From Candidatus Oxydemutator sp. (GTDB lineage: Bacteria; Pseudomonadota; Gammaproteobacteria; Poriferisulfidales; Oxydemutatoraceae), in assembly GCA_965203445.1 (NCBI GenBank), contig OZ241883.1:992001-1056000 (forward strand): a stretch of 64,000 bases of DNA, read 5' to 3'. The translations under genes were made by a program, and so were the position numbers. A model generated the notes under the pieces. It searched no databases, was not told the DNA's origin, and saw only the letters and a list, made by a program, of their open reading frames with translations. This document shows, one piece after another, positions 142-50,458 of this stretch (positions are counted from its first letter, which is position 1; the number at the start of each line of letters is the position of its first letter).

Positions 142-698
142 CCTCGCCGCGGGACTACAAGGCATCGCGCCCGCGCATGGGCGCGGGCGCTCTCCGCGCG
201 AACGTCGCGGGCGGTCGCCTGCGTTTCGCCGCGGGCGCGGTTTTCGGGCTGTCGTTGGGATTGTGCGCCGCCGTCGCCGTCCACCTGTACCATCGCGCGC
301 AGGCGCCCGCCGACGCGACGGCAACCGCCGACGCCGCCCGCGAAGCGCCGGCGGCCGCCGCCGAGGGCGACGAAATCCACTACGATTTTTTTGACCTGCT
401 ACCCGGCTTCAAGCTGGAGATTCCGCCGCCCGACGGGGACGCGGACGACATACCCGCGGCGCGCGCCGGCAGCAGGTTCATCCTGCAGGCCGGCGCCTTC
501 AAGGAGCGCGAACAGGCGCAGCGGCAGCGGCAGCAACTGGTCGGCATGGGCTACCGCGCCGGCGTGCACAAGTTTCGCGCCGCCGGCGCGGACTGGCATC
601 GCGTCTGGATCGGGCCCTACCCGGAATTGGCGCGCGCCAACGAGGCGCGCCTTGCGCTGAAGGAAAAAGGCATCGAAACCCTGCTGACCGGACATTGA
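138..698 (+). CDS. SPOR domain cell-division protein (FtsN-like)
   Basis: N-terminal [10 protein letters not shown] motif, C-terminal LQAGAF...[13 protein letters not shown] domain; GTG overlaps the argS stop. Confidence 0.85.
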
Positions 699-1669
699 CG
701 GACACCGGTCCGGGCAAGACCGCGACGAGCCACGTGCACGTGACCGACACAAAGAGGGCCGACGGCAGGTACTACACGCGCGGCAATCCTTTCGGCAATA
801 CGCCGTTTCAGGAGTGGGCGCGTCGGGCCGGATTGCCGCGCGGGCGCGTTCTTGAACCGTTTGCGGGCGCCAACGGCCTGATAAAGATGCTTGCTGGCAT
901 GGGGATCTGCGAACGTTCTTCGGCGTTCGATATTTCCCCGGCGGATGCCGACGTCGAGCGACGCGACACGCTGCGGGACTTCCCGCGGGGCTACGACATA
1001 TGCGTTACCAATCCGCCCTGGCTGGCAAAAAACAGCGCCACTGTACGGGGGTTGGCGTTTCCGCAGTGCCAATACGATGATCTGTACAAATACGCGCTCG
1101 GGAAGTGTCTGGACAACTGCTCCTACGTCGCCGCCCTGATCCCCGAATCATTCATCACCGCCAATCTGTTCCAGGACCGATTGCAGTCCTTCGTCTCGCT
1201 GACCGCCAGGATGTTTTGTGAAACGGGGCATCCAGCGGGACTTGCGTTGTTCGTTCCCGATCCGGTTGACGACGTCGAGGTATGGTCCGGCACCGAGCGG
1301 GTCGGCCCATTATCACTGTTGAGAAAGCGCAAGCCACAACCGGAGAAGGACGGTATCAATGTCAAGTTTAACGCCGTCGCCGGCAACGTCGGGCTGATCG
1401 CCCTCGACAATACCCGGGAAGCATCCATACGGTTTTGCGACGTCGCGGAGTTGGCAGGCTACCGAGTCAAACCCACCGGGCGCCATATAACCAAACTGAT
1501 GGTTGACGGCCCGATAAGAATTGCCGAATGGAACGGGATCATCAAAGAGTTTCGGGACAAGACCTGCGACGTGCTGATGACCTGTTACAAGGGGATCAGA
1601 AAAGACGGCAAGTATCGGCGCCGCTGCGATTGGTCGCTTGCGCGTGGCGTTATCCATGATGTCGGCTGA
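695..1669 (+). CDS. Orphan amino (N6-adenine/N4-cytosine) DNA methyltransferase
   Basis: Motif I LEPFAGANG, FDI acidic motif, motif IV VTNPPW. Confidence 0.75.
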   Translation: MTDTGPGKTATSHVHVTDTKRADGRYYTRGNPFGNTPFQEWARRAGLPRGRVLEPFAGANGLIKMLAGMGICERSSAFDISPADADVERRDTLRDFPRGYDICVTNPPWLAKNSATVRGLAFPQCQYDDLYKYALGKCLDNCSYVAALIPESFITANLFQDRLQSFVSLTARMFCETGHPAGLALFVPDPVDDVEVWSGTERVGPLSLLRKRKPQPEKDGINVKFNAVAGNVGLIALDNTREASIRFCDVAELAGYRVKPTGRHITKLMVDGPIRIAEWNGIIKEFRDKTCDVLMTCYKGIRKDGKYRRRCDWSLARGVIHDVG

Positions 1670-5963: not shown

Positions 5964-6911
5964 TCACTCGTGCAGGCGCAGGGAACCGATCAGGTCGGTG
6001 ACGCGGGCGATGCCGTGCTCGTCCAGGTAGGACGCGATCTCGCGGTTGACGTTCCGGCACAGCAGCGGGTCGTAAAACAGCCCGGTGCCTATGCCGACCG
6101 CACTGGCACCCGCAATCAAAAACTCGATTGCGTCGCGTCCGCAGGTGACGCCGCCCTGGCCGATAATCGGCGTCGCGTGCGCCTTGCACACCTGATACAC
6201 CTCCCACACCTTGAGCAGCGCGATCGGCTTGATCGCGGCCCCCGACAGGCCGCCCCGGTTGCCGCCTAACACCGGCGTGCGGGTGTGCACGTCTATCGCC
6301 AGGCCGGCGACCGTGTTGATCACGGCGAACGCGTCGCTGCCGGCCTCGAGGCAGCGGCGCGCGTTTTCGGCGACGTCGGTCTGGTTCGGCGACAGCTTGG
6401 TGATCAGCGGCTTGCGCGTCGCCCGGCGGCAAGCCTCGACGACCCGCGCCGACGCCTCCGGGTAATTGCCGAACTCGACGCCGCCCTTGCGCACGTTCGG
6501 GCACGAGACGTTGATCTCGATCGCGTCTATCGGCGTGTCGTCGAGACGCCGCGCGATCTCGCCGTACTCCTCGACGGTCGAACCGCAGACGTTGGCGACG
6601 AAGCGCGTCTCGCCGAAGTCGAGCGCCGGCAGAACGTCGTTGATCAGGGCCTCGACCCCCGGGTTTTGCAGGCCGATGGAGTTGAGCAGGCCGTCCGGCG
6701 TCTCCGCCAAGCGGTGCGGTTGGTTGCCGAGCCTGGGTGCGAGCGTCGTTCCCTTCAGGCACACGGCGCCGACGTCGCGGTGCGAGAAACCCGCGACGCG
6801 GGTGTATTCGTCGCCGAACCCGACGCAGCCCGACAGCAGAACCAGCGGACTGCCGAAGTGCAGACCGCAAAAATCAACGGCCAGTTTGGAATAATCGTCG
6901 CCGCGCGCCAT
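5964..6911 (-). CDS. pyrD: Dihydroorotate dehydrogenase, class 1 type
   Basis: LNSIGLQNPG, EINVSCPN, KLSPN, GGLSG.AIKP motifs; start set at MARGDDY. Confidence 0.9.
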   Translation of the reverse strand: MARGDDYSKLAVDFCGLHFGSPLVLLSGCVGFGDEYTRVAGFSHRDVGAVCLKGTTLAPRLGNQPHRLAETPDGLLNSIGLQNPGVEALINDVLPALDFGETRFVANVCGSTVEEYGEIARRLDDTPIDAIEINVSCPNVRKGGVEFGNYPEASARVVEACRRATRKPLITKLSPNQTDVAENARRCLEAGSDAFAVINTVAGLAIDVHTRTPVLGGNRGGLSGAAIKPIALLKVWEVYQVCKAHATPIIGQGGVTCGRDAIEFLIAGASAVGIGTGLFYDPLLCRNVNREIASYLDEHGIARVTDLIGSLRLHE

Positions 6912-6974
6912 CGCCGCGCGCCATGATACCATTGCCGGAGTATTTTCTCCCTCGTCCGAACCAGAATAATTGCC

Positions 6975-8276
6975 ATGAGAAATTTCGACAGAATTGTTTT
7001 TATATTGGCGTTCGTCGCGGCCACCGCGGGCATAATCGCGTTCAGGAGTTTTCTGCCCGCGTACACGTGGGCGCCCGCGGCGTGGGCGGCGCTGGTGCTG
7101 ACGTTGTTGTTCCTGTACACGCTTGCCGATGAAGGAGGCGGCGAGCGCGACGGCGACAACCTGTATTATCTCGGCCTGCTGTTCACGCTGGTGAGTCTCG
7201 GCCATTCGCTGTACATCTACGATTCCGCCGCCGGCGGGTCGGCCCGCGCCATCGTCTCCGGTTTCGGCGTGGCGCTGTCGTCGACCGTGCTGGGCATACT
7301 CTACCGAGCCATCGTGCAATCGTTCCAGACCGATCTGGCGGAGAGCGAAACCCAGGCGCGGCGCGAACTCGGCAACGCGATGGGGCACTTCAGAACCGAG
7401 TTGTACCAGTGGGCCAAGGACGTCGGTTCGTTCCTGCTGGTGACGCGCCAGATGTTCACCGAGATCAACGACATGTTGCAGGAAAACAGTCGCCAGACCT
7501 GCGAGCGCGTGACCGAGGTGGCGGACGGGCTCAAGCAGACGAGCGAACGCCTGCAAGGGTCGTTTGAAAAGCAGCAGCTGCAATTCGCCGAGGACATGGG
7601 TCGCGCGCACGAGGCCATGGAGAAGGTCGCCGCGCAGTTGGGGGCGCTGGTGGACGGTCGCGGCGGCATCGCGGAAAAACTCGACGGCGCCCTCGGGCAG
7701 ATGGAAGACAGAATCAACGACATCGGCGAGACCGTGAAACGCAACCTGGATAAGCAGTTTCAGGGCACGACCGGGGGGCTGGACGCGTTTTTGAAAAAGC
7801 TGAACGTGTTCGCCGACCGGCTGAAGGTGCTCGAAAGCAGCCCCGACGTCATCGCCGGGGAGTTCCGGCAGCTGGCGCAGACGCTGGAGAAATCGCTGTC
7901 GCCGGTGCGCGCCGTGGTCGACGCCGAAACGAAGATGGTCGCCGAGATAGACGAGTTTCTGGAGACGATCCGCAATACCGACGTCACCAGGCTGGCGCAA
8001 TCGGTGGACTTGGCCGCGGCCAAGACCGCCGAGCTGAGCGAGCGGCTCGCGTCCATAGGCGACGAGATGGAGGCGGCGACGCACCGCCTGGTGGAAACGA
8101 TGAAGAACAGCGAGACCGAGGTACAGGGGCACGTCAAGACGTCGGAGAACTTCCGGCGGAGCATGCAGAGCCACCTCGAGGCGTCGCGCGTCATGGTGCG
8201 CGAGGTGCACGAGTCGCTGCTCACCGCGGCGCGGGCGATTCGCAAGGAAATAGATGGCGTCGAATACAAACAATAA
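6975..8276 (+). CDS. MotA/TolQ/ExbB-like membrane protein with long helical tail (ZorA-like)
   Basis: About 4 TM segments including YYLGLLFTLVSL and GFGVALSSTVLGI, then ~310 aa of helical, coiled-coil-like sequence. Confidence 0.6.
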   Translation: MRNFDRIVFILAFVAATAGIIAFRSFLPAYTWAPAAWAALVLTLLFLYTLADEGGGERDGDNLYYLGLLFTLVSLGHSLYIYDSAAGGSARAIVSGFGVALSSTVLGILYRAIVQSFQTDLAESETQARRELGNAMGHFRTELYQWAKDVGSFLLVTRQMFTEINDMLQENSRQTCERVTEVADGLKQTSERLQGSFEKQQLQFAEDMGRAHEAMEKVAAQLGALVDGRGGIAEKLDGALGQMEDRINDIGETVKRNLDKQFQGTTGGLDAFLKKLNVFADRLKVLESSPDVIAGEFRQLAQTLEKSLSPVRAVVDAETKMVAEIDEFLETIRNTDVTRLAQSVDLAAAKTAELSERLASIGDEMEAATHRLVETMKNSETEVQGHVKTSENFRRSMQSHLEASRVMVREVHESLLTAARAIRKEIDGVEYKQ

Positions 8277-8964
8277 AGCGGACGCCGCCTTGCTGAACGG
8301 GCGCTCGTACCGCCGCGGCCTGACGCTGGGGCTGGGGCTGTCGGAATTGCTGGTGGTGGTGCTGTTCCTGCTGCTGCTGTTGGGCGTGCCGTACGCGACG
8401 ACGCGCCCGGCCGCGGAGCAGCCCGCCGACGTGCGCGAGTCGGCCGCGCTGTTGATCGAAAGCCGCAAGGAACTCGCGCGCGTGCAGGCCGAGAACGCCG
8501 CGCTTCGGCAGAGACTGTCGCAGGGCAAGGAGGGGCTGCTCAGGCAGCTCAGGCAGCAGACGCTTGCGATCGCCCACCTGGCCAGGGAAAAAGGCCTCGA
8601 GGCGTCGTGCTGGTACGACTTCGACGAGGCCGGCAAACAGAACCAGGTGTATCTGTTTGACGTCAACATCTATGACGTCGGCATGGAAATCGAGGACCTC
8701 GAGGCACCCCCGCAATACGCCGAGGAGAAGGCGCTGCTGCCGCTCGACCTTCCCTACGGTGAACGCATCAGCGACGACGACTTCCTGCGCGCGACCAAGC
8801 CGCTCCACGAATACGCCAGGACGCGCAAACTGAGGCCGTACCCGTGCGTGTTCTACGTGCGCATACGCGACCGCACTTCGGCGGCGGCGCCGGAGCGCTA
8901 CAAACGGGCCGACGAGCGCGTCGTCGGCCGGCATTTCTACCGCTATCGCTCGCGCACCCGGTAG
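8254..8964 (+). CDS. Single-pass membrane partner protein (MotB/ExbD-like anchor, unknown C-terminal domain)
   Basis: TM LGLSELLVVVLFLLLLL with intramembrane Glu, coiled coil, two-Cys C-terminal domain; overlaps the upstream gene. Confidence 0.55.
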   Translation: MASNTNNKADAALLNGRSYRRGLTLGLGLSELLVVVLFLLLLLGVPYATTRPAAEQPADVRESAALLIESRKELARVQAENAALRQRLSQGKEGLLRQLRQQTLAIAHLAREKGLEASCWYDFDEAGKQNQVYLFDVNIYDVGMEIEDLEAPPQYAEEKALLPLDLPYGERISDDDFLRATKPLHEYARTRKLRPYPCVFYVRIRDRTSAAAPERYKRADERVVGRHFYRYRSRTR

Positions 8965-8976
8965 CGGAACCTCGGC

Positions 8977-9162
8977 GTGAAACGGGTGAACGGGAAAATC
9001 GCGCGCGCCGACTCGTGTGCGCTCGAGATCGCCGACCTGCGCCGTGAGCACAGACTGTTGCGCAAGACGGTCAAGTCGTGGCGGCAGCGGCGGCGCAAGC
9101 TGCTGCTGAAGGAACGGATTTACGGCGCCGTGCACGGCGTGCACGAGGCGCGCGACGACTGA
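8977..9162 (+). CDS. Small basic hypothetical protein
   Basis: 61-aa ORF 12 bp after the membrane pair, filling the gap before the gpsA stop. Confidence 0.3.
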   Translation: MKRVNGKIARADSCALEIADLRREHRLLRKTVKSWRQRRRKLLLKERIYGAVHGVHEARDD

Positions 9163-9183
9163 GCGGCGTCGCGTCGGCGGTGC

Positions 9184-10188
9184 TCATCCGCCGCTCTCGG
9201 CGCGCGCCGGTCTTCGCAGTAGTTCGACGACGGCGTCGTGCACCGTCGTCTCGCCCTGCAACACGCGCTGAACCTGCGTGCAGATCGGCATTTCGACGCC
9301 GTGGCGCGCCGCCAGTCGCAGCGCGATGCCGGTCGTCGGCACGCCCTCGACGACGCCGCCGCATTTGCCGAGCGCGTCGCGCGCCGCGAGTCCCCGCGCC
9401 AGCAGCAAGCCGAGGCGGCGGTTGCGCGACAGGTCGCTGCCGCACGACAGCACGACGTCGCCGAGACCGGCCAGGCCGGTAACGGTCTCCGCGCGCGCGC
9501 CCATCGCCGTCGCCAGTTCCAGAATCTCGTTGAGGCCGCGCGTGACCAGCGCGGCCTTTGCATTTTCGCCCATGCCCAGACCGTCGCACACGCCGACCGC
9601 GATCGCGATGACGTTCTTCAGCGCCCCGCCGATCTCGGCGCCGACCACGTCGTCGGTGGTGTAGGCGCGCAACTTGCCGCCGTGCAGCATCGCCGCGAAA
9701 GCGCGCGCCGCGCCGGCGTCGCGCGAGGCTATGGTGACGGCGGTGGGTTTGCCGGCGGCGACTTCGGCCGCAAACGACGGTCCCGCCAGCACGCACAACG
9801 GCAGCTTGCCGCCGAGCGTCTGCTCGATGACCTCGTGTACCAGGCAGGCGCTCTCGACCTCGATGCCCTTGATCGCGCACACCAGCCCCGTGTGCCTCTT
9901 GCCGACCGCGTCCTTGAGCCGTCCCGCGGTTTTGCGCAGCGCCGCGGTCGGCAGCGCCAGCAGCAGCAGCTCACCCGCGGCCACCGCCTCGTCGAAGTCG
10001 GCGCGCACCGAGACGGCGTCGGCAAGCCGCGCTCCGGGCAGATAGACGTCGTTGCGGCGCGTGTCCGCGAGGCGCGCGAGTAGCGCGCGGTCGCGCCCCC
10101 ACAGGTGCACCGCGTGCCCGTTGTCTGCGAGTTGCGACGCGAGCGCCGTGCCCCAGGCGCCCGCGCCGATCACGGTGATTTGCGTCAT
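9184..10188 (-). CDS. gpsA: NAD(P)H-dependent glycerol-3-phosphate dehydrogenase
   Basis: GAGAWGTALA, GPSFAAEV, GGALKNVIAI, SRNRRLG. Confidence 0.95.
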   Translation of the reverse strand: MTQITVIGAGAWGTALASQLADNGHAVHLWGRDRALLARLADTRRNDVYLPGARLADAVSVRADFDEAVAAGELLLLALPTAALRKTAGRLKDAVGKRHTGLVCAIKGIEVESACLVHEVIEQTLGGKLPLCVLAGPSFAAEVAAGKPTAVTIASRDAGAARAFAAMLHGGKLRAYTTDDVVGAEIGGALKNVIAIAVGVCDGLGMGENAKAALVTRGLNEILELATAMGARAETVTGLAGLGDVVLSCGSDLSRNRRLGLLLARGLAARDALGKCGGVVEGVPTTGIALRLAARHGVEMPICTQVQRVLQGETTVHDAVVELLRRPARAESGG

Positions 10189-17619: not shown

Positions 17620-18324
17620 GTGAACAAGAATTTCAAACTGAAAAAATCCAGCAGTCTGGTCTCTGCGGCGCTGGCGGGCGGTCTGGCCGTCACCGGGAGC
17701 GTCGGCGCCGAAGAGGGAAGCCTGTTCGTAGCCGACGAATTGCCCGTGGGCTATATGTACGCCGACGCCCATGGAGCCGAAGGCAAGTGCGGCGAAGGCA
17801 AGTGCGGCGAGGGCAAGTGCGGCGAGGGTATGCGTAAGGCCAAAGGTATGGAAGGCAGATGCGGCGAGGACAAGCACAAGGCAGGCATGCACAAGGCCAA
17901 GGACGCGGAAGGCAAGTGTGGCGAGGGCAAGTGCGGCGAGGGCAAGTGCGGCGAAAGCATGCACAAGGCCAAGGGCATGGAAGGCAGATGCGGCGAGGAC
18001 GAGCACAAGGCGGGCATGCACAAGGCCAAGGACGCGGAAGGCAAGTGTGGCGAAGGCAAATGCGGCGAGGGCAAGTGCGGCGAAAGCATGCACAAGACCG
18101 AGGGCATGAGCGGCAAAGCCAAGGGTATGGAAGGCAAATGCGGTGAGGGCAAGTGCGGCGAAGGCAAATGTGGCGAAGGCAAGTGCGGCGAGGGCAAGTG
18201 CGGTGAGGGCAAATGTGGCGAAGGCAAGTGCGGCGAGGGCAAGTGCGGTGAGGGCAAATGTGGCGAAGGCAAGTGCGGCGAGGGCAAATGTGGCGAAGGC
18301 AAGTGCGGCGAGGACAAGAAATAG
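17620..18324 (+). CDS. HvfA-family EGKCG-repeat secreted RiPP precursor / putative metal-binding protein
   Basis: GTG start after GAGGAG, signal peptide, F...L..GY leader motif, 21 EGKCG plus 2 EGRCG repeats. Confidence 0.85.
   Translation: MNKNFKLKKSSSLVSAALAGGLAVTGSVGAEEGSLFVADELPVGYMYADAHGAEGKCGEGKCGEGKCGEGMRKAKGMEGRCGEDKHKAGMHKAKDAEGKCGEGKCGEGKCGESMHKAKGMEGRCGEDEHKAGMHKAKDAEGKCGEGKCGEGKCGESMHKTEGMSGKAKGMEGKCGEGKCGEGKCGEGKCGEGKCGEGKCGEGKCGEGKCGEGKCGEGKCGEGKCGEGKCGEDKK
17779..18309 (+). repeat. Nested coding repeats: 15-bp units within 129-bp units, plus 12 x 15-bp tandem run
   Basis: 129-bp units start at 17779, 17908, 18037 (third partial); 12 tandem EGKCG units at 18130-18309. Confidence 0.95.
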
Positions 18325-39551: not shown

Positions 39552-40055
39552 TCAGTTCTTTTCTCTTATTCGGATTGCTTCTTCTACTGCATTAGACAAA
39601 TGTTTAGAAATCCAAGCATAAATTTCTTTGCTGTTACTGCCCTGAGGGTTATAGCAATTGGCTATTGAGGATAATTTCCTCCCGCTTCCTCCATATTTTA
39701 TGTAATCAAGAGGGTTATCTCCTTGAAAGGATGTATATCCCGTTCGATCTTCCAGGCCGTGGATATGAATGCCAACAACGCCCATATTATCGTTCCACGC
39801 CTTAATTATTTCATAGTTTATCCATTTTCTGTTTGCGGTGTTGCTCCCGACAAGAACCACAGCGCATGACCTATAGTTCATCTGTTTGTTTATCCATCGC
39901 TTAATTGCTTCATTACCTCCTCCTTTAATCGTCTCCCAATCATTGTCAGAAACAGGATTATTGCCTTCAATCACACCTATATTGCGAACCTGCGATGCAC
40001 GCCAGCTATCCGGCTGATAGTGGAAGCTGTAAAACACTTGTCTTTTTGTTGCCAT
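39552..40055 (-). CDS. TIR domain protein (DUF1863 / ThsB-like)
   Basis: VFYSFHY, SCAVVLVG..TA.RKWINYEI with catalytic Glu, GVVGI.IH. Confidence 0.9.
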   Translation of the reverse strand: MATKRQVFYSFHYQPDSWRASQVRNIGVIEGNNPVSDNDWETIKGGGNEAIKRWINKQMNYRSCAVVLVGSNTANRKWINYEIIKAWNDNMGVVGIHIHGLEDRTGYTSFQGDNPLDYIKYGGSGRKLSSIANCYNPQGSNSKEIYAWISKHLSNAVEEAIRIREKN

Positions 40056-40066
40056 GTTCAGTCTCC

Positions 40067-40507
40067 TTATCTTCCTGCTTGTCGAGCAGCTTTTTCTATC
40101 CAGTCGCCCATGTTCTTGTAGCCATCATCTTTATTCCATAAGTAGAATGGATAGCCTTGGGGTATTTTGTCACATCGTTGGCTAGTATTCCTATCAAGAT
40201 CCTTGATTTTGCTTATGTCTATGCCCAAAAGTCCGTTGCCAATTTGGCGGCTTTTTTCAATTTCATATTTTACCCAACGACTATTGCAAGTATTTTGTCC
40301 GACCAAGACAACTGTTACAGAAGTGCCTATTAGTTGGTTATCAATCCAGTACTGGATTGCTCTATCGCCTTGTCTTTTAATTTCTTCAAAATCCGCTGCA
40401 TCTATAAAACCCGCGGCTTCTTTGCCTTGGGCAACCCAACTGTTTCTGACAACCATTGCCCTTGAAACATCATCTTTATACTTAAAACTGAAAAAGACTT
40501 TTCTCAT
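40067..40507 (-). CDS. TIR domain protein (DUF1863 / ThsB-like)
   Basis: KVFFSF.Y, TSVTVVLVG..T..SRWVKYEI, GLLGI. Confidence 0.9.
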   Translation of the reverse strand: MRKVFFSFKYKDDVSRAMVVRNSWVAQGKEAAGFIDAADFEEIKRQGDRAIQYWIDNQLIGTSVTVVLVGQNTCNSRWVKYEIEKSRQIGNGLLGIDISKIKDLDRNTSQRCDKIPQGYPFYLWNKDDGYKNMGDWIEKAARQAGR

Positions 40508-40526
40508 TATTCAATTCCTCCGAATT

Positions 40527-40937
40527 TTATTTGAGAATAAAAAACACTCCGAATACAAACAGAACTTCAATTCCATAGAATAGATTCAGCGTTACGGAGA
40601 ACATAGAAGCTATCCAGTTGCACTTCGGTTTGTTTTTATGTTTCATGACATTCATTGCAAAATCTGTAGTTTCTTGCTTTCTCATGTCATCATAAACTTT
40701 ACGAAACAATCGCTCTTGCCATAGAAAATAACCGTCTAAAATCCAGAAACCAGCTACAGGAACAAGAAATGTCAATATGATCCACTCTGACAGAGTCCCA
40801 CTCCGTACAATAAGAACTATTCCGGCGGCTAAAATAGTCATGCTCCAGCCTTTTATCAGAAAGGAGTCATGTCCCAAGCGATTGATAACGCCTTGTATCA
40901 TCTCCAAATGTTTTATTACTTGTTCTTTGCCGTTCAT
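40527..40937 (-). CDS. Small multi-pass membrane protein (candidate effector)
   Basis: HLEMIQGVINRL...SFLIKGW, about 3 hydrophobic helices, WILDGYFL.QERLFR. Confidence 0.75.
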   Translation of the reverse strand: MNGKEQVIKHLEMIQGVINRLGHDSFLIKGWSMTILAAGIVLIVRSGTLSEWIILTFLVPVAGFWILDGYFLWQERLFRKVYDDMRKQETTDFAMNVMKHKNKPKCNWIASMFSVTLNLFYGIEVLFVFGVFFILK

Positions 40938-40959
40938 TTGAGACCTCTACCGTACATGG

Positions 40960-41628
40960 TTAATCGGATATAGTTTTCACAACATCGTAATCTTCGATAT
41001 TGCCATTTATATATTCTGCCTTTTTAAGATACTTCTCACTATCTGCTATAAAGTCATACCATTTTACTGAATCTATGTATGAATGGAATCCAGTGTAAAC
41101 TGTTCTAGGCGAATGATATTTACAATCTGAAAAGGTCGGAGCTTTCACATTGAACATGTTGTTCCTTAGTATTCCGAACAAAGTGTCTATTTTCAATGTT
41201 CTGCAATTACAGTGGAGGCAAGTATTTTCTTTAAGATAGTACCTGTAATCAGAGTTATAGTCTGGCAACACTATCGCCAGCATCGCATTGGCGTGACTTG
41301 TGCGGTCATTGCGTGAAATTTCTTTGAGAGAGTATGAAACTTCCCAAGGTATCCACTGGTCAGATTCGTTGTTATAAGGATCTTTCATACAGGGCGAAAT
41401 AAAAACGAGTGTCATACTGCTATCGTATATCTTATCTTTCAGATGAGTGGCAATAGTTTCATCTTTGAATTGGCTCAGGTCTTCATTGCCTTCTCCCTTG
41501 TAGATTTCATCTCCTTTGAATAACTTGATTAACTCGTCCACATAGCCGCGTGCAGTAGTGGCTATACCGTTCAAAGGTGCAACGGTGCTATCGTTATGCT
41601 TGTACGTAACGAATATCTTTCTAGCCAT
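40960..41628 (-). CDS. TIR domain protein (DUF1863 / ThsB-like) with C-terminal extension
   Basis: RKIFVTYKH, IYDSSMTLVFIS, QWIPWEVSYSL with catalytic Glu; CLHCNC in the extension. Confidence 0.85.
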   Translation of the reverse strand: MARKIFVTYKHNDSTVAPLNGIATTARGYVDELIKLFKGDEIYKGEGNEDLSQFKDETIATHLKDKIYDSSMTLVFISPCMKDPYNNESDQWIPWEVSYSLKEISRNDRTSHANAMLAIVLPDYNSDYRYYLKENTCLHCNCRTLKIDTLFGILRNNMFNVKAPTFSDCKYHSPRTVYTGFHSYIDSVKWYDFIADSEKYLKKAEYINGNIEDYDVVKTISD

Positions 41629-41724: not shown

Positions 41725-43601
41725 CAGAGTTTAGCATTACTTGAAGCTTGGGCTTCAGCTTCCGCTGGAATTATTTCCTTCAACAAATCAAATATTACTT
41801 GGAAATGTTTGAAGTCATCAGGTGTTCCATTCTCGCAAAGCCAGTTACAAAGATTGTCCTTTTCATGCTCGTTGATATTCCATTCCTCCGGGATTATTTT
41901 TTCTTCTCCTCGTTCGATCTTTGGGTGTTCCGGAGTAATGTCTATGAATGCAGGTTTGCTTTCTATTGCCTTTTGCAAGGTTGCTTTCTCGAATAGATTT
42001 TCAATACCTTTCTTCAAGGGATGATCTTTCTGTTCAGGAATGTTTAGTCTAATTACATTCCCCTCGGCTTCCTCTTTCGGTTCATCACAATCATAGAGAA
42101 GCATTACCTTCTTATGCTCAATTATTTCGGAAAGTTTAGAAGAACGTCTGTATTTCCAAATATTACTCAAATTCCCATGCCCGCCTCCGTCTTTTAATTG
42201 AACCCTTTCCAGGAACTCTTTTTCATTAAGCAATTCTGCCGCTCGCTCCAAATATTTTATGTCAGTCTTTCCCTCCATGAATACAATGGGGTTTTGGGCC
42301 TCGCGGATCGCTTGTTGAATGGCATCCAAAAATGTTTTGGTCCTGGTAAGGGAATCATAGGCGTTGCCAAATTCGCCGAATTCCTCCGGACTGATCTGCC
42401 GCCCCTGGGGCAACTCGTACAGGGCGAACCCATCTGTCCCTAAGGCTTTTTCCATTCCGAGTACAAACAACGGGGAATGGGTGGTAACAATGAATTGAAC
42501 CCGTGGAAACATTTGTATCAGTTTAGGCAGCACTTTATATTGGTGAACAGCATGCAAGTGCAGGTCAATCTCATCAACAACGACAATGCCACGCACGTTG
42601 TCGGCGTTAGTAAAAGATGCTTTAGATAAATCAAAATCCCGGAGGATGGATAAGAACAGATTCAACAGCGAAGTTTCTCCACTGGATAATTGGAAAATAT
42701 TTGGGACAAGAGTTTGATTGTTATGCATCAAAGAAACTTGTCTGTTCTGCCTATTGCCAATTCCTAACCGTAAATTTTCATCCGCCTGAAAGATAACCTG
42801 AATAATACTAAGGACAATTGCATAAAGAGAATTTGCCGGTCCCTGGTATCCAAGCAATAGAGGCAGATTCACACTATGCGCGGGCTGATTGTTAGAATGT
42901 TTTGGATTAGCAACGGATACAGAGACAGGCCGGGTATGCATTTCAAAAACAGAATAGTCGTAAATCAGATCAAATAACCAGTTTCGATTATGGGAGAGAG
43001 GGGAATACTGAATAATTCTGCGATCGGTATATCCTTGCATATGCCTCATATCTGTATATTCAGCTTTGCTTCTTAAGTTCTCTTTATTCAGCCATGCGGG
43101 TTCCTCAAATCTATCAGGCGGGAAATAGAGAATACAGCTACTTTCAAAAATCTTTTTTAGAGCATCATTTTGAGTAGAAATGCTCCCATCGATCCAATCT
43201 GCTCCCGCATCAGAGATACCACTCCATAATTGATCAATGCTATCAGCACAAAATGAAGGCTTTTGAGAAAAATCTTTCTTTGATCGAATTAAACATAATT
43301 CTTGAAGATATAAATTTTGTTCGAAATCCACTTTTGCATAGGAATATTCATCTCCTAACCTGATGTAGAAAGGAGACCGTAGCTTGTACACTCTATTCTG
43401 TTCCATCTCGCTATTTTCAGGATAAATGACGCTTTGCGCTGACATCAAACCATTGACAATATGAGACAAGAGAATGCTTTTGCCCGAACCATTTTTACCA
43501 ACCAGTAAAACCGGTTGGGGATTGTCCCCGGCGAAAGGGAAGGTAATATCAAGATGGTCAATCGGACCATAGTTTTCTATTTGAATTCTTTTGGTGTACA
43601 T
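41724..43601 (-). CDS. ABC-type ATPase with C-terminal TOPRIM-like domain (OLD-like nuclease)
   Basis: GKNGSGKS, LSSGE, VVDEIDLHLH, TTHSP; C-terminal VFMEGKTD and LYDCD. Confidence 0.8.
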   Translation of the reverse strand: MYTKRIQIENYGPIDHLDITFPFAGDNPQPVLLVGKNGSGKSILLSHIVNGLMSAQSVIYPENSEMEQNRVYKLRSPFYIRLGDEYSYAKVDFEQNLYLQELCLIRSKKDFSQKPSFCADSIDQLWSGISDAGADWIDGSISTQNDALKKIFESSCILYFPPDRFEEPAWLNKENLRSKAEYTDMRHMQGYTDRRIIQYSPLSHNRNWLFDLIYDYSVFEMHTRPVSVSVANPKHSNNQPAHSVNLPLLLGYQGPANSLYAIVLSIIQVIFQADENLRLGIGNRQNRQVSLMHNNQTLVPNIFQLSSGETSLLNLFLSILRDFDLSKASFTNADNVRGIVVVDEIDLHLHAVHQYKVLPKLIQMFPRVQFIVTTHSPLFVLGMEKALGTDGFALYELPQGRQISPEEFGEFGNAYDSLTRTKTFLDAIQQAIREAQNPIVFMEGKTDIKYLERAAELLNEKEFLERVQLKDGGGHGNLSNIWKYRRSSKLSEIIEHKKVMLLYDCDEPKEEAEGNVIRLNIPEQKDHPLKKGIENLFEKATLQKAIESKPAFIDITPEHPKIERGEEKIIPEEWNINEHEKDNLCNWLCENGTPDDFKHFQVIFDLLKEIIPAEAEAQASSNAKL

Positions 43602-43605
43602 CTTC

Positions 43606-46230
43606 TTACTCCCCCCACCACAAATAGGGTTTGAGCAGGGTTATGAAGTGTTGTTTTTCTTCGGCGGTCATTTTAGCGGGGTTGGTTTTTTCGGTGGTGC
43701 CGTCGGCGAAGGTTACCTGGTCGGCGGTGCGGCGGCGGATGGGTTTGCCGAGGGCGTTGGAGAAGGATTCGGCGATGTCCAAGTCGGGGTACAGGTCGTG
43801 GAGGTTGATTTCGAGCCTTTCTTTGTTCACCACTTGGACGGCGTGGGCGAGTTTGTCGTCGTTGAAGAAGACGTATTGCTCGAACGGGGATTTGAGGCTG
43901 TCTATTTCTATTTGTTCGCCGTCTTTGTAGTGCGAGTTTTTGAGGGTTTCCTCGTATTGTTCCAGGGTGTAGTACTTGAGGCAGTGGCTGCTGCCTTCAC
44001 GCGATACAGGCTGGCCGTCTTTCCAGTCTTTGGAATATACGACTTTCTTGATGCGCGGGAGCAGGACGGTATGGAAGTAATCGCCCATTTCGACGAGCAG
44101 GTATTTGCGGTTGCCGCCGTCTTCTCTGTTCAGGTTGATGACGGCATGGGCGGTGGTGCCGGAACCGGCGAAAAAATCTAAAACCACCTCCTTATCCTCG
44201 TGAACGCAAGACTTTATACAGTCCTCAACGTTATAAATTGATTTTGGATAAGAAAAAGTGCCTGCTTTACCCATGATGGCGGTAAGAAGATTACTTCCAT
44301 GCACACCAGCGTTATACTTTTTGTCAGTCCAGTTACTAAAAATTGGTCGCCGTCGGTCAGTTTCCTCAATGAGTTGGTAAATGGACATACCATTTTTGCA
44401 GATAATGTTCCCTTTCTTATTTTCATTGAGAAAAGATTTGTAGGAACGACGCCATACACGTTCTGTTCCGTCCGTGCCAATGGGATATATGCGAATCCAC
44501 CCCTCAGATGTGTTTTCTTCAGGATAGTCAGCGCCCTGTGGAGGCTCTTCGGCACCCATGACCTTGAAATTTTTGGGGTTCACCAGGATCGCATAAAAGC
44601 TATTCGGACGGCCAATACGCAAATTACTTTCGGCTGTACCAGTTCGGACAAAGCCGCGCTCAGTCTGTCCTATGTCTTTCTTTTCTCCTCGTAGTATCTT
44701 TACATCCGGTGGGGTCATAAAAATCGCATACTCGTGGGTACAAGATATGTTTGTTCCCTCTAGTCCCGCTCCGGCCGGATGATGATTGACAACTACCATA
44801 TTCCGTTCCCACATTGGCAAGCAAATTTCCAAAAGGTGGGAAAGAAGTACCATTTCGGTATCATCAATTGCTGCAATAAAGACGCCTTCAGTCATTAAGG
44901 TGGATGCCGAATGAACGATTCTATTCTCCAGCAATGTTATCCATGAAGAATTTTTGTATCCGTTTTTGTAGGCAATTTCAGATGCGTCGGTGTTATACGG
45001 CGGATCAATATAAATGCACTTCACCTTCCCCCGATACCGCCTCTGCAAAGTGTTCAGCGCCTGCCAATTTTCGCTGTGCACGAGTTCGCCGTCCAGGGCT
45101 TCGTCCAGGTTGCCGAGGGCGTCTAAAATCTCCAGTTCCAAATCTTTGAAATGTCTGGTGTCCAGGGGGAGGTGTTGCCATTTTTCCTTCGCCCCTGCCC
45201 CTTTCCCAGAGGGAGATAAGTTGAATCCGTTCTCCACCATGCCCAGTTGGCGCCATTCTTTTGTCTGCGCTTTGATGCCCTTGTGTTCGGTGATTTTCTT
45301 CAGTAGTTTGGCGGGCAGTTTGTCCAGCGTCACCACGTAATGCACGCCGCGCACGAACTTCGGTTTTTCCCACGCGCGCCGCAGTTCATCCTCGAACTGG
45401 GCGATGAAGTCTATGACGTCGTAGGCGGTTTTCTGGATCGCCTGTAATTGCTTGACCCTTTCCGCCTCGAAGATGCTTTCCTCTCTGAACATGAATTGAT
45501 ACAGCCACAGGTCGAACTGCTCGCGCAGAAAGCCGCGCGCGTCCTTGTTGATAAAGAAGTCCACTTCGGTCTGCCCGCGGAAGACGCGAAAGGCCTTTTC
45601 CAGTTCATCCTCGCTCAGCCGCAGGCGGCTTTTGCGCGCCTGTCTGATAATGTCGTCGGACTTGGTCTTTTTTCCTTTCTCGGAGTAGGAGACTTTCAGG
45701 TGCAGAACCGGCCATCCGTCTGCGTCGTCCACTTTGTCGAACGCAAACACGAACTCGCGCTTTTCGTTGTTGCGCTTGTGCTCGATTTCGGTGGCGTCGA
45801 AGTAAAACCGCCTGATGTCTCCCAAGTGGTCGCGTTCGGGCAGCTTCACCGGCATCGAGCGCACCAGCACGTCGGACTTTACGTAGTAGAGCATCTGCGT
45901 TTTCCACGCCAGGGCCACGTCCTTGTCGTCGGCATAGACGCGCTCGTACGTCTTGGCGAAGGCCGGCAGGTGGCGGAAATAGATCGAGCCGCTCTCGCTG
46001 AAATAACGCCTGAAGAACGTCCATAGCTTGTCGAACAATTCCTCGCGGAAACTGGTTTCCGGTGCGGCGCGTCGGTCTATGGCCGCCATCAGCATGGGCT
46101 GGATGGACTCGAAGTATTGGCGCTTGATGCGCATCAGATTGACGAAGCCGGAGTCGCCTTCCACCTCGGCCCCGATGAACAGCGCCTCGAGCGCGTCTAA
46201 AAACCGTTTTTCTTTGTGTCCGATGGCCAT
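43606..46230 (-). CDS. mod: Type III R-M DNA methyltransferase Mod subunit
   Basis: SENWQAL, IYIDPPYNT before VLDFFAGSGTT (beta order) with an intervening TRD. Confidence 0.9.
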   Translation of the reverse strand: MAIGHKEKRFLDALEALFIGAEVEGDSGFVNLMRIKRQYFESIQPMLMAAIDRRAAPETSFREELFDKLWTFFRRYFSESGSIYFRHLPAFAKTYERVYADDKDVALAWKTQMLYYVKSDVLVRSMPVKLPERDHLGDIRRFYFDATEIEHKRNNEKREFVFAFDKVDDADGWPVLHLKVSYSEKGKKTKSDDIIRQARKSRLRLSEDELEKAFRVFRGQTEVDFFINKDARGFLREQFDLWLYQFMFREESIFEAERVKQLQAIQKTAYDVIDFIAQFEDELRRAWEKPKFVRGVHYVVTLDKLPAKLLKKITEHKGIKAQTKEWRQLGMVENGFNLSPSGKGAGAKEKWQHLPLDTRHFKDLELEILDALGNLDEALDGELVHSENWQALNTLQRRYRGKVKCIYIDPPYNTDASEIAYKNGYKNSSWITLLENRIVHSASTLMTEGVFIAAIDDTEMVLLSHLLEICLPMWERNMVVVNHHPAGAGLEGTNISCTHEYAIFMTPPDVKILRGEKKDIGQTERGFVRTGTAESNLRIGRPNSFYAILVNPKNFKVMGAEEPPQGADYPEENTSEGWIRIYPIGTDGTERVWRRSYKSFLNENKKGNIICKNGMSIYQLIEETDRRRPIFSNWTDKKYNAGVHGSNLLTAIMGKAGTFSYPKSIYNVEDCIKSCVHEDKEVVLDFFAGSGTTAHAVINLNREDGGNRKYLLVEMGDYFHTVLLPRIKKVVYSKDWKDGQPVSREGSSHCLKYYTLEQYEETLKNSHYKDGEQIEIDSLKSPFEQYVFFNDDKLAHAVQVVNKERLEINLHDLYPDLDIAESFSNALGKPIRRRTADQVTFADGTTEKTNPAKMTAEEKQHFITLLKPYLWWGE

Positions 46231-46268
46231 CTGCCTTACCCTAAGTTTTCAAGCACGTCCTCTTAAAA

Positions 46269-46287
46269 GGAATTATCAGAGGTTCCC
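46269..46287. mobile_element. Isolated IS5-like terminal repeat
   Basis: GGAATTATCAGAGGTTCCC, similar to the end at 46703-46722. Confidence 0.55.
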
Positions 46288-46293
46288 TTGCGC

Positions 46294-46599
46294 TTAACGC
46301 CAATAATTATTGGCGATGGCGATAGTTTTGAATTCTATGGCGACCAGCTCCGTTGCCTGCATCAACAATGCAGGATCATCCTGGTATTTCTGGCGGACCG
46401 CCATTTTTATGCCTGAGTCTCGCTGAATGGTGCCTATGGTTTTTCTGACTATTTTTATAGCGAGCATGCGTCCCTCAAGGGGCGTTTTGGTAATGAGGCT
46501 CGGCATGTAATCCGCAGGTTTCTTGGCCTCTTCGGCATATCCGATGGTTCCGACGAACAAAAAAGGCAGGATAAATATGGTTTTCAGCATACGACGCAT
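46294..46599 (-). CDS. Hexameric tyrosine-coordinated heme protein (HTHP) family, with signal peptide
   Basis: PSLITKTP.EG..LA.K..R, Q.D, R..Y..D (Tyr ligand), F.TIA.AN.YW match the HTHP pattern. Confidence 0.8.
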   Translation of the reverse strand: MRRMLKTIFILPFLFVGTIGYAEEAKKPADYMPSLITKTPLEGRMLAIKIVRKTIGTIQRDSGIKMAVRQKYQDDPALLMQATELVAIEFKTIAIANNYWR

Positions 46600-46635
46600 T
46601 GTGTACTCTCCTATAGTTCTGGTTTGGGAATTGCA

Positions 46636-46722
46636 GGGAATCTCTAAAAACCCCCTGTATCAGTTTTCATTATAAGCCCTTGCCATTACTCGACTTGAAA
46701 AAGGAATTCTCAAGAGGTTCCC
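46636..46722. mobile_element. 87-bp MITE-like IS5 derivative
   Basis: Starts GGGAATCTCT, ends AGAGGTTCCC (imperfect inverted repeats); first ~60 bp resemble the reverse complement of the IS end at 31877-31936. Confidence 0.65.
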
Positions 46723-46784
46723 GCTAATCCTTCGCGGATTTTTCGTTGTGCTTGCGCGGCCGGATCAGCCTGGTCTTGATGGTG

Positions 46785-48494
46785 TCAGTTTTCGCCATTG
46801 GTTGAATCTCCCGAGATCTGCTTCAGGCGTTTTTTTCCTGCCTGCGTCAGGCGGTAGCGCTGCTTGCTGCTGCGCGGCTTGTCCGGGATGGTCATTTCGA
46901 TCAGGCCGGCTTGCAAGGCAGGGAGCAGATAGACTTCGCTGAAGTGCTCCCGGTGTTTCAGGCCAAGAGCCTCCTGGAGGCTTTGCCTGGTCATTTCCCC
47001 CGACAGCATCCGTAGTAGTCGGACTTCCGGAGTATCCTGCTCGGCGACTTGTCCGGTGACTTGCTCGGTGACTTGCTCGGTGACTTGCCCGGTGACTTGC
47101 CCGGTGACTTGCCCGGTGACTTGCCCGGTGACTTGCCCGGTCACTTGCTCGGTGACTTGCTCGGTGACTTGTCCGGTGGCTTGCTCGGTGGCTTGCTCGG
47201 CGACTTGTCCGGTGACTTGCTCGGTAGCTTGTCCGGTGACTTGTCCGGTGACTTGTCCGGTGACTCGTCCGGTGGCTTCCGGGGAGACTTCCGGGGGCAC
47301 TTGAGGGGTAGTTTGGGGGACGACTTCCGGGGTCGCCCGATCCTCCCCCGATACCTCCTGAATCTCCCGAACTTCTGGGTTCGGGCGGAAGGTGACGGTG
47401 ACGAAATTGCCGGCCACGAACTCCGGCTTCGGGCAGTCCTGCGCCTTCGCGCCGTCCCGGATGCGACGGATCCCCGTGCCCGCTTTCTCGATGAAGTCAA
47501 TGCGGTGGAGCAGGTCGGCGATGAGCGGGTTGCGGCGGATGCTCATGCGCCCGAGGTCGGTCAGGGCCAGGCCCTTGGGCAGGCCGCCGGGGCTGATCAC
47601 CTCGATCCGATCCGCGTAGACCTCGACGAAGACGTTGGCGCCGTCGAAGAACCAGTCGCGGTGCATGACCGCGTTGGTGATCGCCTCGCGCACCGCCTCC
47701 ATCGGGTACTCCGGGATGTTCTGTCGCCGCAAGCCCTCGATGCGGTAGGCGGTGCGGGTGTTGCGCTCGACGAAGCGCATGGCGTCCTCGACGTCGGCCA
47801 CGATGCCGCCGTCGAAGTCTTTGCGGTCCAGGATGTGCACCTTGTCGGTGCCCCGCCCCAGCAGGCAGGTGACGTACGCCTCCGGGAAGAAACGACGCAC
47901 TTTCCTGGCGAAGAAGAGCACGCCCGCGTTGCGGAAGAGCAGCCCGTCGCCGGTGCGCTCGGCGACCTCGATGTTGACCAGCACGTCCTCGACCGGCGGC
48001 TTTCCGGTGATGCCGGACAGGGCGAGCCAGGCGTCGAACTTCTCGCGGTCGAAATCCTCCGGGTAGCGGAAGCGGGGGCAGGGGGAGAGATCGAACCGGA
48101 TCACGCCCTCGGTGCGGAAGAAATCGCGGATCTTGTCACGGCTCATCTTCTGGGTCATCGCTCCTTGACGCCAGAAGAAGCCGTCTCTGCACTGCACCGG
48201 CTTGGCGTCGCTCTCGCGGACGTGGACCACGAGCACCCCGGCCACCGGCTCCACCAGCACCTTCACCGCCGGATCGCAGTTGCGGGCGATGTCCTGGACG
48301 CGGGCGCGCAGGGCGTTGGTGTCATTCGCCCCGATCACGTCGCCGTCGTCACGCACGCCGAGGAGGATCTTCCCGCCGACAGTGTTGGCCAGAGCCACGA
48401 CCTCGCGCGCGAACGACGAAGACAGGCGTTCCTTGAACTCCAGCGTGGTGCCTTCGCCCTGCTGGACAAGAATTGCAAGATCGGTCGGTTTCAT
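46785..48494 (-). CDS. AlbA_2 plus HATPase_c_4 protein with tetrapeptide-repeat linker and C-terminal HTH
   Basis: [58 protein letters not shown]. Confidence 0.85.
47037..47276 (-). repeat. 12-bp coding tandem repeat, about 20 units
   Basis: Units encode [VA][TA][GE]Q ([12 protein letters not shown]). Confidence 0.95.
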
Positions 48495-48584
48495 GAGAAT
48501 TTCCGCGCTCCTCCGATAACTGTATGTCTCAGCACTTCCCGGATACGTCCGGAAGCAACCTCGAGGACGCAATGTTATCGCATT

Positions 48585-48622
48585 GTCGGCAATAATCAGT
48601 GGAAATTCCGACGAACGGCATC
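48585..48622. repeat. 38-bp direct repeat, copy 2
   Basis: GTCGGCAATAATCAGTGGAAATTCCGACGAACGGCATC. Confidence 0.8.
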
Positions 48623-48709
48623 GGAACCAAGCCGACTATGTAGAAAGCATGGATGCGCGGCATTTTGCCCGTCGCTGCCGCTTCTGGTCTTTGCGGCGAA
48701 TCGGGTAGT

Positions 48710-50458
48710 TCAGGCTTCGCCCGTGCGCGGCTTCGCCTCGCCTGCGACGCGCACAATCGCCTCCAATTTTTCGCGGATTTCCGGGTCAATCTCGTTTGCG
48801 GGCACGTGCCGGGCGAGTTCGTAGAAACTATTTTTGGCCATCGCGTTCGGAAGCCCTGTTTTTTGGAAGTAGGCACGGAACAGGGGGGTCAGAAAGTCAT
48901 TGCTCGCCTTGGTGCCGGCGTCCCAGGGGGAGCCTTTGCCAAGTTTCTCCATTGCCTCGGTGATTTCAGTGATGGCCTCGCGCATGGCCTTCATGCGCTT
49001 TTCGGTTTCGGATTGAGAATACAATGTATCCTCGCCGAAGTCCGTCCGTACGGACGCCAGCACGTATGCCTCCAAAGTGGCCGGCGAGCACAGGTAGTTT
49101 TCGATCTCCCGCCGTCGCCACGTCAGGCAGGCGACGGACTTTATGTCGGGCTCCACTTTCAGCCGATCAAAAAGAGCCACGCCTTTCAAATCCGGCCATG
49201 CCTCGCGCAAGCCGTGATAATGCGAGATGGCTTTCTTCGGCTTATCCTCCACGTAGTGCACAAACGGCTTGCGCAGTGCTTCTATCGCTTCGCCGTATTC
49301 GAGACGTTCGGCGAAAGCCTGCAACACCGCAAGGTCGGTCGAACCTTCGAGGTAGAGAACCCAGCCGGTCTGCTAGGCCTGGTAGTACTGCTCGAACCCG
49401 ATCTTTCTCAGCGCCTTCAGAACCTGGCCGCCGCGATCGGCAATCCGGTGCGGCTTGCCGACGAAGGCGATGACCAGGTCTTTGCCCGCCGCCTCGTTCA
49501 GCAGCACCTCGGAGTGGCTTGCGATTATGATCTGGCTGCCGCTGTCCGCGGCCGCGTCCGCAAGCAGCTTGTAGGTCTGCCGCTGGCGCAGAATCTCAAG
49601 GTGCGCGTCGGGTTCGTCCAACAGCAGCACCGCGCCGGGGTTGGCATACAGATAGGCCAGCAACAGCAGGGTCTGTTGCAGCCCGCGGCCGCTGGACGAG
49701 AGATCGAGGCTGACGGCCCGTTCCCGATATTCGCGGTAGCTCATCGCAATCTCGCCGCGCTCCCGAATGTAGCGCGCGTCGTCGAGTTCCGCCCCGAAGA
49801 GGTCCTTTATCCGGCTTTTTAATTCTTTCCATTTGTCCGGCTGTCTCTCCTGAATGCGGAAGCACAAATTGCGCAGCACCTCGGCCGTGCGGCCTTCGCC
49901 GACGCGTACGTTCATCGCCCCGTCGTCCAGGCGCGTCTCGGTCGCCGCGAGGCCGGACATCGGCGGCAGGAAGGCGATCCGGGTGGCGACGGCATCTTCC
50001 GGCACCGGCATCCGCGAGTCGCCCTTGTCATCCAATCGCAAAGGCCGGCAGTAGAAAGACTCCGGGTTCGCATAATCGAACTCCAGACCGCATTTCCACC
50101 GCCGGCCTTTGGCGGTTCCTTCGACGATGACGTCAATCCGGACGTTGTCGGTCTTTTGTTTGCCGCCGACTTTCTGCGTATTCCGCACGTGCAGCCCCTG
50201 CCACAGCAGATTCGCGTCCGGCACCGGAACGGCGACGAGGTCCTGGCGGTTGACGGTGACGCCGGGGCGCTTTTCCGGCGCGCTTTTGCCTGCGCGTTTC
50301 TCGCTCCAGCGCTTCGCCCCGACGTCCCACAACGCCAGCGCCTGCATGGCCGAGGTCTTGCCCGAATTGTTCGGCCCGATGAACACGACCGGGTTGCCCA
50401 ATTCGATCTCGACCTCGCCGAAGCATTTGAAATTGCGGATGGTGATTCTGGTGAGCAT
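48710..50458 (-). pseudogene. ABC-ATPase/TOPRIM-like (OLD-like) gene interrupted by one in-frame TAG
   Basis: GPNNSGKT, SGRG, LLDEPDAHL, ASHS; YYQA*QTGWVLYLEGSTD continues in frame across the TAG at 49373-49375. Confidence 0.8.

What the first reader, a model, noticed from the sequence alone, without database searches (positions are those of the whole stretch)
6975..9162. ZorAB-like ion-motor pair with no OmpA domain and no effectors
Seen: a 433-aa protein whose TMs echo MotA/TolQ/ExbB signatures (LGLLFTLVSL, GFGVALSSTVLG) followed by a ~310-aa helical tail. It overlaps a single-TM partner carrying S-E-L-L where MotB/ZorB carry the essential Asp. The partner's C-terminal domain (SCWY...YLFDV...CVFYVRIRD) lacks the OmpA peptidoglycan-binding motif. 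Established: Zorya ZorA is a MotA-like head plus long cytoplasmic tail, ZorB has an OmpA domain, and ZorC/D/E lie adjacent. Here the pair sits between pyrD and gpsA with only a 61-aa basic ORF. Inference: an uncharacterised family of ion-driven membrane motor or sensor.
Basis: partly seen in the sequence, partly recalled or inferred. Interest (0 to 1): 0.7.

Follow-up and report, generated by a model that had tools for sequence, protein, structure and literature searches.

The report
Glutamate ion-motor pair missing its partners
Two overlapping genes encode membrane proteins predicted to form an ion-driven rotary motor that has glutamate where related motors need aspartate; elsewhere they are the last half of an unnamed four-gene operon, often next to exported DNA-cutting enzymes, that likely guards the cell envelope, while this bacterial genus has kept only the motor half.

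The parts
6975..8276 (+). Gene A, 433 aa: four-helix membrane head (residues 3-117) of MotA/TolQ/ExbB/ZorA type plus all-helical tail (121-433)
7185..7187 (+). A Thr71, invariant in 89 of 89 homologues; aligns with the pore-lining Thr of type II ZorA (8vvi)
7284..7286 (+). A Thr104, invariant in 89 of 89; aligns with the second pore-lining Ser of type II ZorA
7155..7169 (+). A Asp61-Asn-Leu-Tyr64-Tyr65 family signature (D61, Y64, Y65 invariant in 89 of 89, as is Arg111 at 7305-7307); not matched in the aligned ZorA
7335..8273 (+). Helical tail of A, inferred cytoplasmic; low model confidence (block pLDDT 39-71)
8254..8964 (+). Gene B, 236 aa: basic N-terminus, one membrane helix (27-45), helix 59-112, periplasmic alpha/beta domain
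8344..8346 (+). B Glu31, invariant in 78 of 78 aligned family members; inferred counterpart of the MotB/ExbD/ZorB Asp
8590..8961 (+). C-terminal domain of B; best structural matches TolR and ExbD periplasmic domains; Cys119 and Cys198 invariant in 38 of 38 (inferred disulfide)
8977..9162 (+). 61-aa basic ORF, found only in the 4 genomes of this genus among 26 searched, dN/dS 0.19-0.32; inferred third gene of the reduced cassette
5964..6923 (-). pyrD (flanking, divergent; not part of the module)
9184..10188 (-). gpsA (flanking, convergent; not part of the module)

Best explanation
A and B likely assemble in the inner membrane as a ZorAB/TolQR-type five-plus-two motor in which protons would pass via Glu31 of B and the Thr71/Thr104 ring of A, with B's predicted TolR/ExbD-like domain bracing in the periplasm and A's long tail likely carrying the movement into the cytoplasm as an envelope-damage signal. 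Shown: the architecture, the fold of A's head, the invariant residues, the coupling of the two genes, and that they descend from a mobile four-gene operon X-Y-A-B that often sits with exported nucleases. Inferred: complex formation and 5:2 ratio (about 0.85), ion flux through the Glu (about 0.65), an envelope-sensing, anti-phage or anti-plasmid role for the full operon (about 0.55). In this genus X and Y were lost, the cassette was fixed between gpsA and pyrD and kept under selection, so the motor would work with the 61-aa ORF or with partners encoded elsewhere; whether it still defends is the weakest step.
Confidence: 0.5

Rival explanations
1. Same 5:2 ion motor, but a TolQR/ExbBD-style energiser with no defence role: it pulls on a periplasmic or outer-membrane partner (Y, a membrane-anchored vWA-like protein, in the full operon), perhaps for envelope upkeep, adhesion or use of extracellular DNA as food, and was domesticated in this genus for such a job.
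For: TolR/ExbD-like fold of B's domain; membrane-tethered vWA proteins are proposed force transducers of TolQ-like motors (PMC12204202, passages) and Y's nearest named Atlas clusters are vWA (TM 0.63-0.69); stable chromosomal site and purifying selection; exported SNase could serve DNA scavenging (inference).
Against: Ton/Tol A subunits have no such long helical tail (established knowledge); Y shows no conserved polar residue in its membrane helix, unlike the SHLS/His transducers; OmpA-type relatives are closest to ZorB; distribution is patchy and mobile; this genome has its own tolQR and exbBD.
Confidence: 0.3
2. A-B alone is a complete defence: a gated ion channel that opens on envelope damage and depolarises the cell, so X, Y and nucleases are dispensable add-ons.
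For: A-B without X-Y occurs in three separate places: this genus, L025 and L076; X and Y were not found in 4 of 4 genus genomes while A and B stay under selection.
Against: Solo pairs are rare (2 of 74 genome loci with enough upstream DNA); Zorya II protection needs its effector ZorE (PMC11890865, passage).
Confidence: 0.12
3. A decaying or non-conducting relic of the four-gene operon.
For: X and Y lost; B has the shortest helix-to-domain linker of the family (108-109 against 140-321 residues) and Thr28 to Gly; long branch in the tree.
Against: Intact frames in 4 of 4 genus genomes at 59-62% identity, dN/dS like gpsA, Glu31, T71, T104 and both cysteines kept.
Confidence: 0.05
4. A is a chemoreceptor-like signalling protein, as some database names of homologues say.
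For: Source names 'methyl-accepting chemotaxis protein' for 2 of 89 homologues and 2 plasmid records; tail hits MCP structures.
Against: The same tail profile hits 1266 unrelated helical sequences, apolipoproteins first; no MCPsignal match in Pfam; the head is MotA/ZorA-like and always paired with B.
Confidence: 0.03

Closest known systems
ZorAB core of Zorya (type II, PDB 8vvi; type I, 8qyd/8vvn)
   Same: MotA-like head followed by a long helical tail; pore-lining Thr/Ser pair; single-helix partner encoded directly downstream; in 35 of 80 relatives an OmpA domain that scores best against ZorB2/ZorB1 where tested (4 of 4).
   Different: Glu instead of Asp; four membrane helices and a D-N-x-Y-Y signature in A; query B has no OmpA domain; no ZorC/D/E; usual partners are two unannotated membrane proteins X and Y and exported rather than cytoplasmic nucleases; all ZorA/ZorB profile scores far below NCBIfam cut-offs.
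TolQR and ExbBD (Tol-Pal and Ton motors)
   Different: Long tail on A; 50-250-residue helical stalk and a cysteine pair in B; no TolA/TonB gene alongside; no detectable sequence likeness to ExbD/TolR; Glu for Asp.
MotAB flagellar stator
   Same: Four-helix A subunit, single-helix B with an acidic residue near the start of the helix; 3-4 relatives have a MotB-like OmpA end (by eye).
   Different: No large cytoplasmic torque domain between helices 2 and 3 (loop of about 5 residues), no flagellar context.
TolQ-like motors with membrane-tethered vWA proteins (PMC12204202)
   Same: Motor genes next to a membrane-anchored vWA-type gene (Y) in the full operon.
   Different: There the vWA protein carries the SHLS/His motif or the Asp helix itself; here Y has neither, a separate B carries the acid, and the window's genus has no Y.

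Membership tests
Zorya (ZorAB) | ZorA: MotA/TolQ/ExbB-type membrane head with long cytoplasmic helical tail | tested here: met
Zorya (ZorAB) | Score above curated ZorA/ZorB family cut-offs | tested here: not met
   ZorA_1 24.7 bits against 190, ZorA_4 21.5 against 500; B no ZorB hit
Zorya (ZorAB) | Thr/Ser ring in the A pore | tested here: met
   T71, T104 invariant 89/89 and aligned to ZorA Thr/Ser in a weak (E 1.8) alignment
Zorya (ZorAB) | Essential Asp in the B membrane helix | tested here: not met
   No Asp in the helix; Glu31 invariant 78/78; equivalence of position inferred
Zorya (ZorAB) | OmpA-like peptidoglycan-binding domain in B | tested here: not met
   No OmpA hit for the window's B; present in 35 of 80 relatives (31 of 77 by Pfam)
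Zorya (ZorAB) | Adjacent ZorC/D, ZorE or ZorF/G genes | tested here: not met
   Neighbours are pyrD, a 61-aa ORF and gpsA; in 80 relatives only X and Y recur and they hit no Zorya model. Genome-wide ZorC-type search was inconclusive
Zorya (ZorAB) | A5B2 complex, ion flux, phage protection | not testable with these tools
   Needs cryo-EM, flux assays and phage challenge
TolQR / ExbBD | B periplasmic domain of ExbD/TolR fold | tested here: inconclusive
TolQR / ExbBD | Pfam MotA_ExbB and ExbD above cut-off | tested here: not met
   15 bits against 22.9 for A; no ExbD hit for B
TolQR / ExbBD | TolA/TonB transducer encoded alongside | tested here: not met
   None in the window locus or recurring in 80 loci
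MotAB stator | Cytoplasmic torque domain in A, plug plus OmpA domain in B, flagellar context | tested here: not met
   Short loop between helices 2 and 3, no OmpA, housekeeping neighbours

The most novel reading that the evidence does not exclude
X-Y-A-B is an undescribed branch of 5:2 ion motors that naturally runs on glutamate and works as an outward-facing counterpart of Zorya: its B subunit swaps between TolR/ExbD-like and ZorB-like peptidoglycan anchors and carries or recruits nucleases in the periplasm, cutting incoming phage or plasmid DNA before it reaches the cytoplasm; the window holds a minimal, genus-fixed A-B form showing that the motor can be split off and put to new use.
Probability: 0.25. 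Interest if true: 0.85.

Novelty: new variant of a known kind. Interest (0 to 1): 0.62.

Why it matters
The membrane Asp of MotB, ExbD, TolR and ZorB is called universally conserved and tolerates Glu poorly; a family of over a thousand sequence clusters with invariant Glu gives a natural test of how these motors couple ion binding to rotation. One A family paired with two different periplasmic anchors links the ExbD/TolR and MotB/ZorB branches. Nucleases fused to the periplasmic end of B point to a possible defence step at the envelope. A culturable host with the whole operon exists (Rhizobium johnstonii 3841, pRL11), so this is directly testable.

Tried and rejected
Complex prediction with four A heads and two B helices (the tool holds six chains, so 5:2 could not be folded): no verdict, scores 0.10 and 0.08, no controls folded; not evidence either way. 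Foldseek of the B model against PDB: nothing at E under 0.001. Bleomycin hydrolase hit of the B-domain profile (E 2e-4): rejected, a single eukaryotic protease family unsupported by the model's matches. hhalign of B's domain against ExbD/TolR, OmpA-type, SNase, Y and HNH alignments: none significant. Profile searches of Y (0 hits), full B (coiled-coil noise) and the B helix against PDB sequences: uninformative. ZorA/MCP/apolipoprotein hits of A's tail treated as helical low-complexity noise. ZorC-type EH_Signature search in 3 genomes: 0, but no control genome rang. No sigma-70-like promoter in 6600-9400; 2 terminator-like sites against 2.3 expected. Viral contigs: 1 locus, so not a phage gene. 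61-aa ORF: no homologue beyond itself in the protein search. Tree was the quick version, the careful search did not finish; L037 and L064 left out. Literature searches that did not return a description of this operon: (open full text only; supplements with candidate-system lists were not examined and could list it).

Full report
Observation. The window holds gene A (6975-8276, 433 aa), gene B (8254-8964, 236 aa, 23-nt overlap) and a 61-aa ORF (8977-9162), all on +, between pyrD and gpsA on -. Codon-position GC matches the neighbours. The genome is one 2.38-Mb contig with a single copy of each gene. Family libraries give only weak hits: MotA_ExbB E 0.022, ZorA models E 5e-6 to 1e-4, mostly in the tail, and nothing significant for B.

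The family. A scan of species genomes confirmed 200 relatives of A and returned the best 80. A B-type gene follows A in 79 of 80; X and Y precede it in 75 of 80, or 72 of 74 with at least 2.6 kb upstream. Of 81 metagenome and viral loci, 33 of 34 with enough upstream DNA have X and Y and 34 of 34 with enough downstream DNA have B. X (about 480 aa) has about four membrane helices between coiled coils; Y (about 255 aa) has one helix, two invariant cysteines and a domain nearest to vWA clusters; neither hits Pfam, PADLOC or NCBIfam meaningfully. B ends in the query-type domain in 40 loci, an OmpA-type domain in 35, never both, and neither profile in 4. The four OmpA-type proteins tested score best against ZorB2/ZorB1 (E to 5e-61), below curated cut-offs. 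On a quick tree of 79 A heads the B type changes three times, but strongly supported branches force only one change. Members span seven phyla in that tree and 24 plasmid records.

Context of the full operon. 35 of 80 loci carry an SNase or GmrSD_C/HNH domain: 13 fused to B, hence periplasmic by topology, and 22 separate SNase genes, most with a hydrophobic leader (37 by a looser count). Five host genomes hold 15 SNase matches in 22.2 Mb, so about one would be expected in the 1.44 Mb of loci; kin are not independent and my profiles were built from some of these genes. Of 126 nearest neighbours from 67 loci (13 loci dropped as own genus, near-duplicates, cut or without a called X), 13 are transposases, integrases or a resolvase and 6 are clear defence genes; of 119 second neighbours 7 match PADLOC models over their length. 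That is 8 of 67 loci and 13 of 245 genes (5%), against about 1.5% of genes quoted in a review (PMC13434031, search listing only). The enrichment is modest and has no matched control. No ZorC/D/E-like gene recurs.

The window's lineage. A is in 4 of 4 genomes of the genus (59-62% identity), 0 of 15 other genomes of the family, and 1 of 34 further genomes of the order, which has the whole operon. Profiles of X and Y find nothing significant in the four genus genomes (three at least 98% complete). pyrD-A-B-orf61-gpsA is kept in G000, G001 and G003, whereas in five other genera gpsA runs into pyrD with 24-860 bp between the matches: the cassette entered at that junction in the genus ancestor (inference). 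dN/dS is 0.19-0.38 for A, 0.18-0.43 for B and 0.19-0.32 for the 61-aa ORF, against 0.16-0.31 for gpsA (three genomes; the 41-codon B helix alone gave 0.52 and 1.13, too short to weigh). The ORF is found only in the genus (4 of 26 genomes). The genome has separate tolQR and exbBD, and its one SNase match lies elsewhere, in another frame over a methyltransferase-like gene. B here has the shortest stalk of the family.

Mechanism. Most likely five A and two B form a motor: protons would reach Glu31 through the Thr ring, B would hold at the cell wall through its TolR/ExbD-like domain, and A with its tail would turn or shift. In the full operon the ZorB-like anchors, tail, mobility and exported nucleases suggest envelope surveillance against incoming DNA; a Ton/Tol-like energiser is the main rival. 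Asp-to-Glu nearly inactivates ExbD and MotB (bioRxiv 2022.09.26.509584, passages), so the family must either have a reshaped pore (the invariant D61/Y64/Y65/R111 are candidates) or run differently. None of complex, flux or function was shown.

Verdict. Real, conserved and undescribed in the papers searched. It works like ZorAB/TolQR but fails the Zorya membership tests (Asp, OmpA, effectors, cut-offs). New variant of a known kind; interest 0.62.

Noticed in passing
window 39555-41628 (-): Three TIR-like genes (PADLOC ThsB1, E to 4e-76) around a PDC-M50A-like small membrane gene, inside a larger defence island (PtuA-like ATPase, type III methyltransferase, AriA/NsnB-like ATPase, 41727-50458) about 30 kb from the pair.
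   Followed up: partly
L005, L019, L021, L023, L030, L073, L080; L013, L015, L026, L027, L031, L046: B proteins with OmpA domain plus a C-terminal SNase (7) or GmrSD_C/HNH (6) domain; catalytic motifs look intact by eye.
   Followed up: partly
L076:8127-13323: A-B without X-Y in Rubrimonas, directly behind a 606-aa gene with a Walker A motif that looks like a conjugative coupling protein (by eye, not scanned).
   Followed up: no
L214:5673-10828 (NC_008384.1): Full X-Y-A-B(OmpA) operon with a convergent thermonuclease gene and an upstream PBP1A gene on pRL11 of Rhizobium johnstonii 3841.
   Followed up: partly
G000:C1:1552056-1554347, 1868894-1871683, 2170332-2175289: Three more non-canonical MotA/TolQ-like clusters in the same genome, each followed by single-helix partners that appear to carry Asp.
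   Followed up: no
window 17620-18324 (+): Signal-peptide protein made largely of Gly-Lys-Cys-Gly-Glu repeats; resembles metal-binding or modified-peptide precursors (recalled, not tested).
   Followed up: no
window 695-1669 (+): Lower-GC methyltransferase-like gene (weak Eco57I hit) that lies before glnA here but next to pyrD in G003 and is missing from the G001 stretch, so a mobile gene in this region.
   Followed up: no
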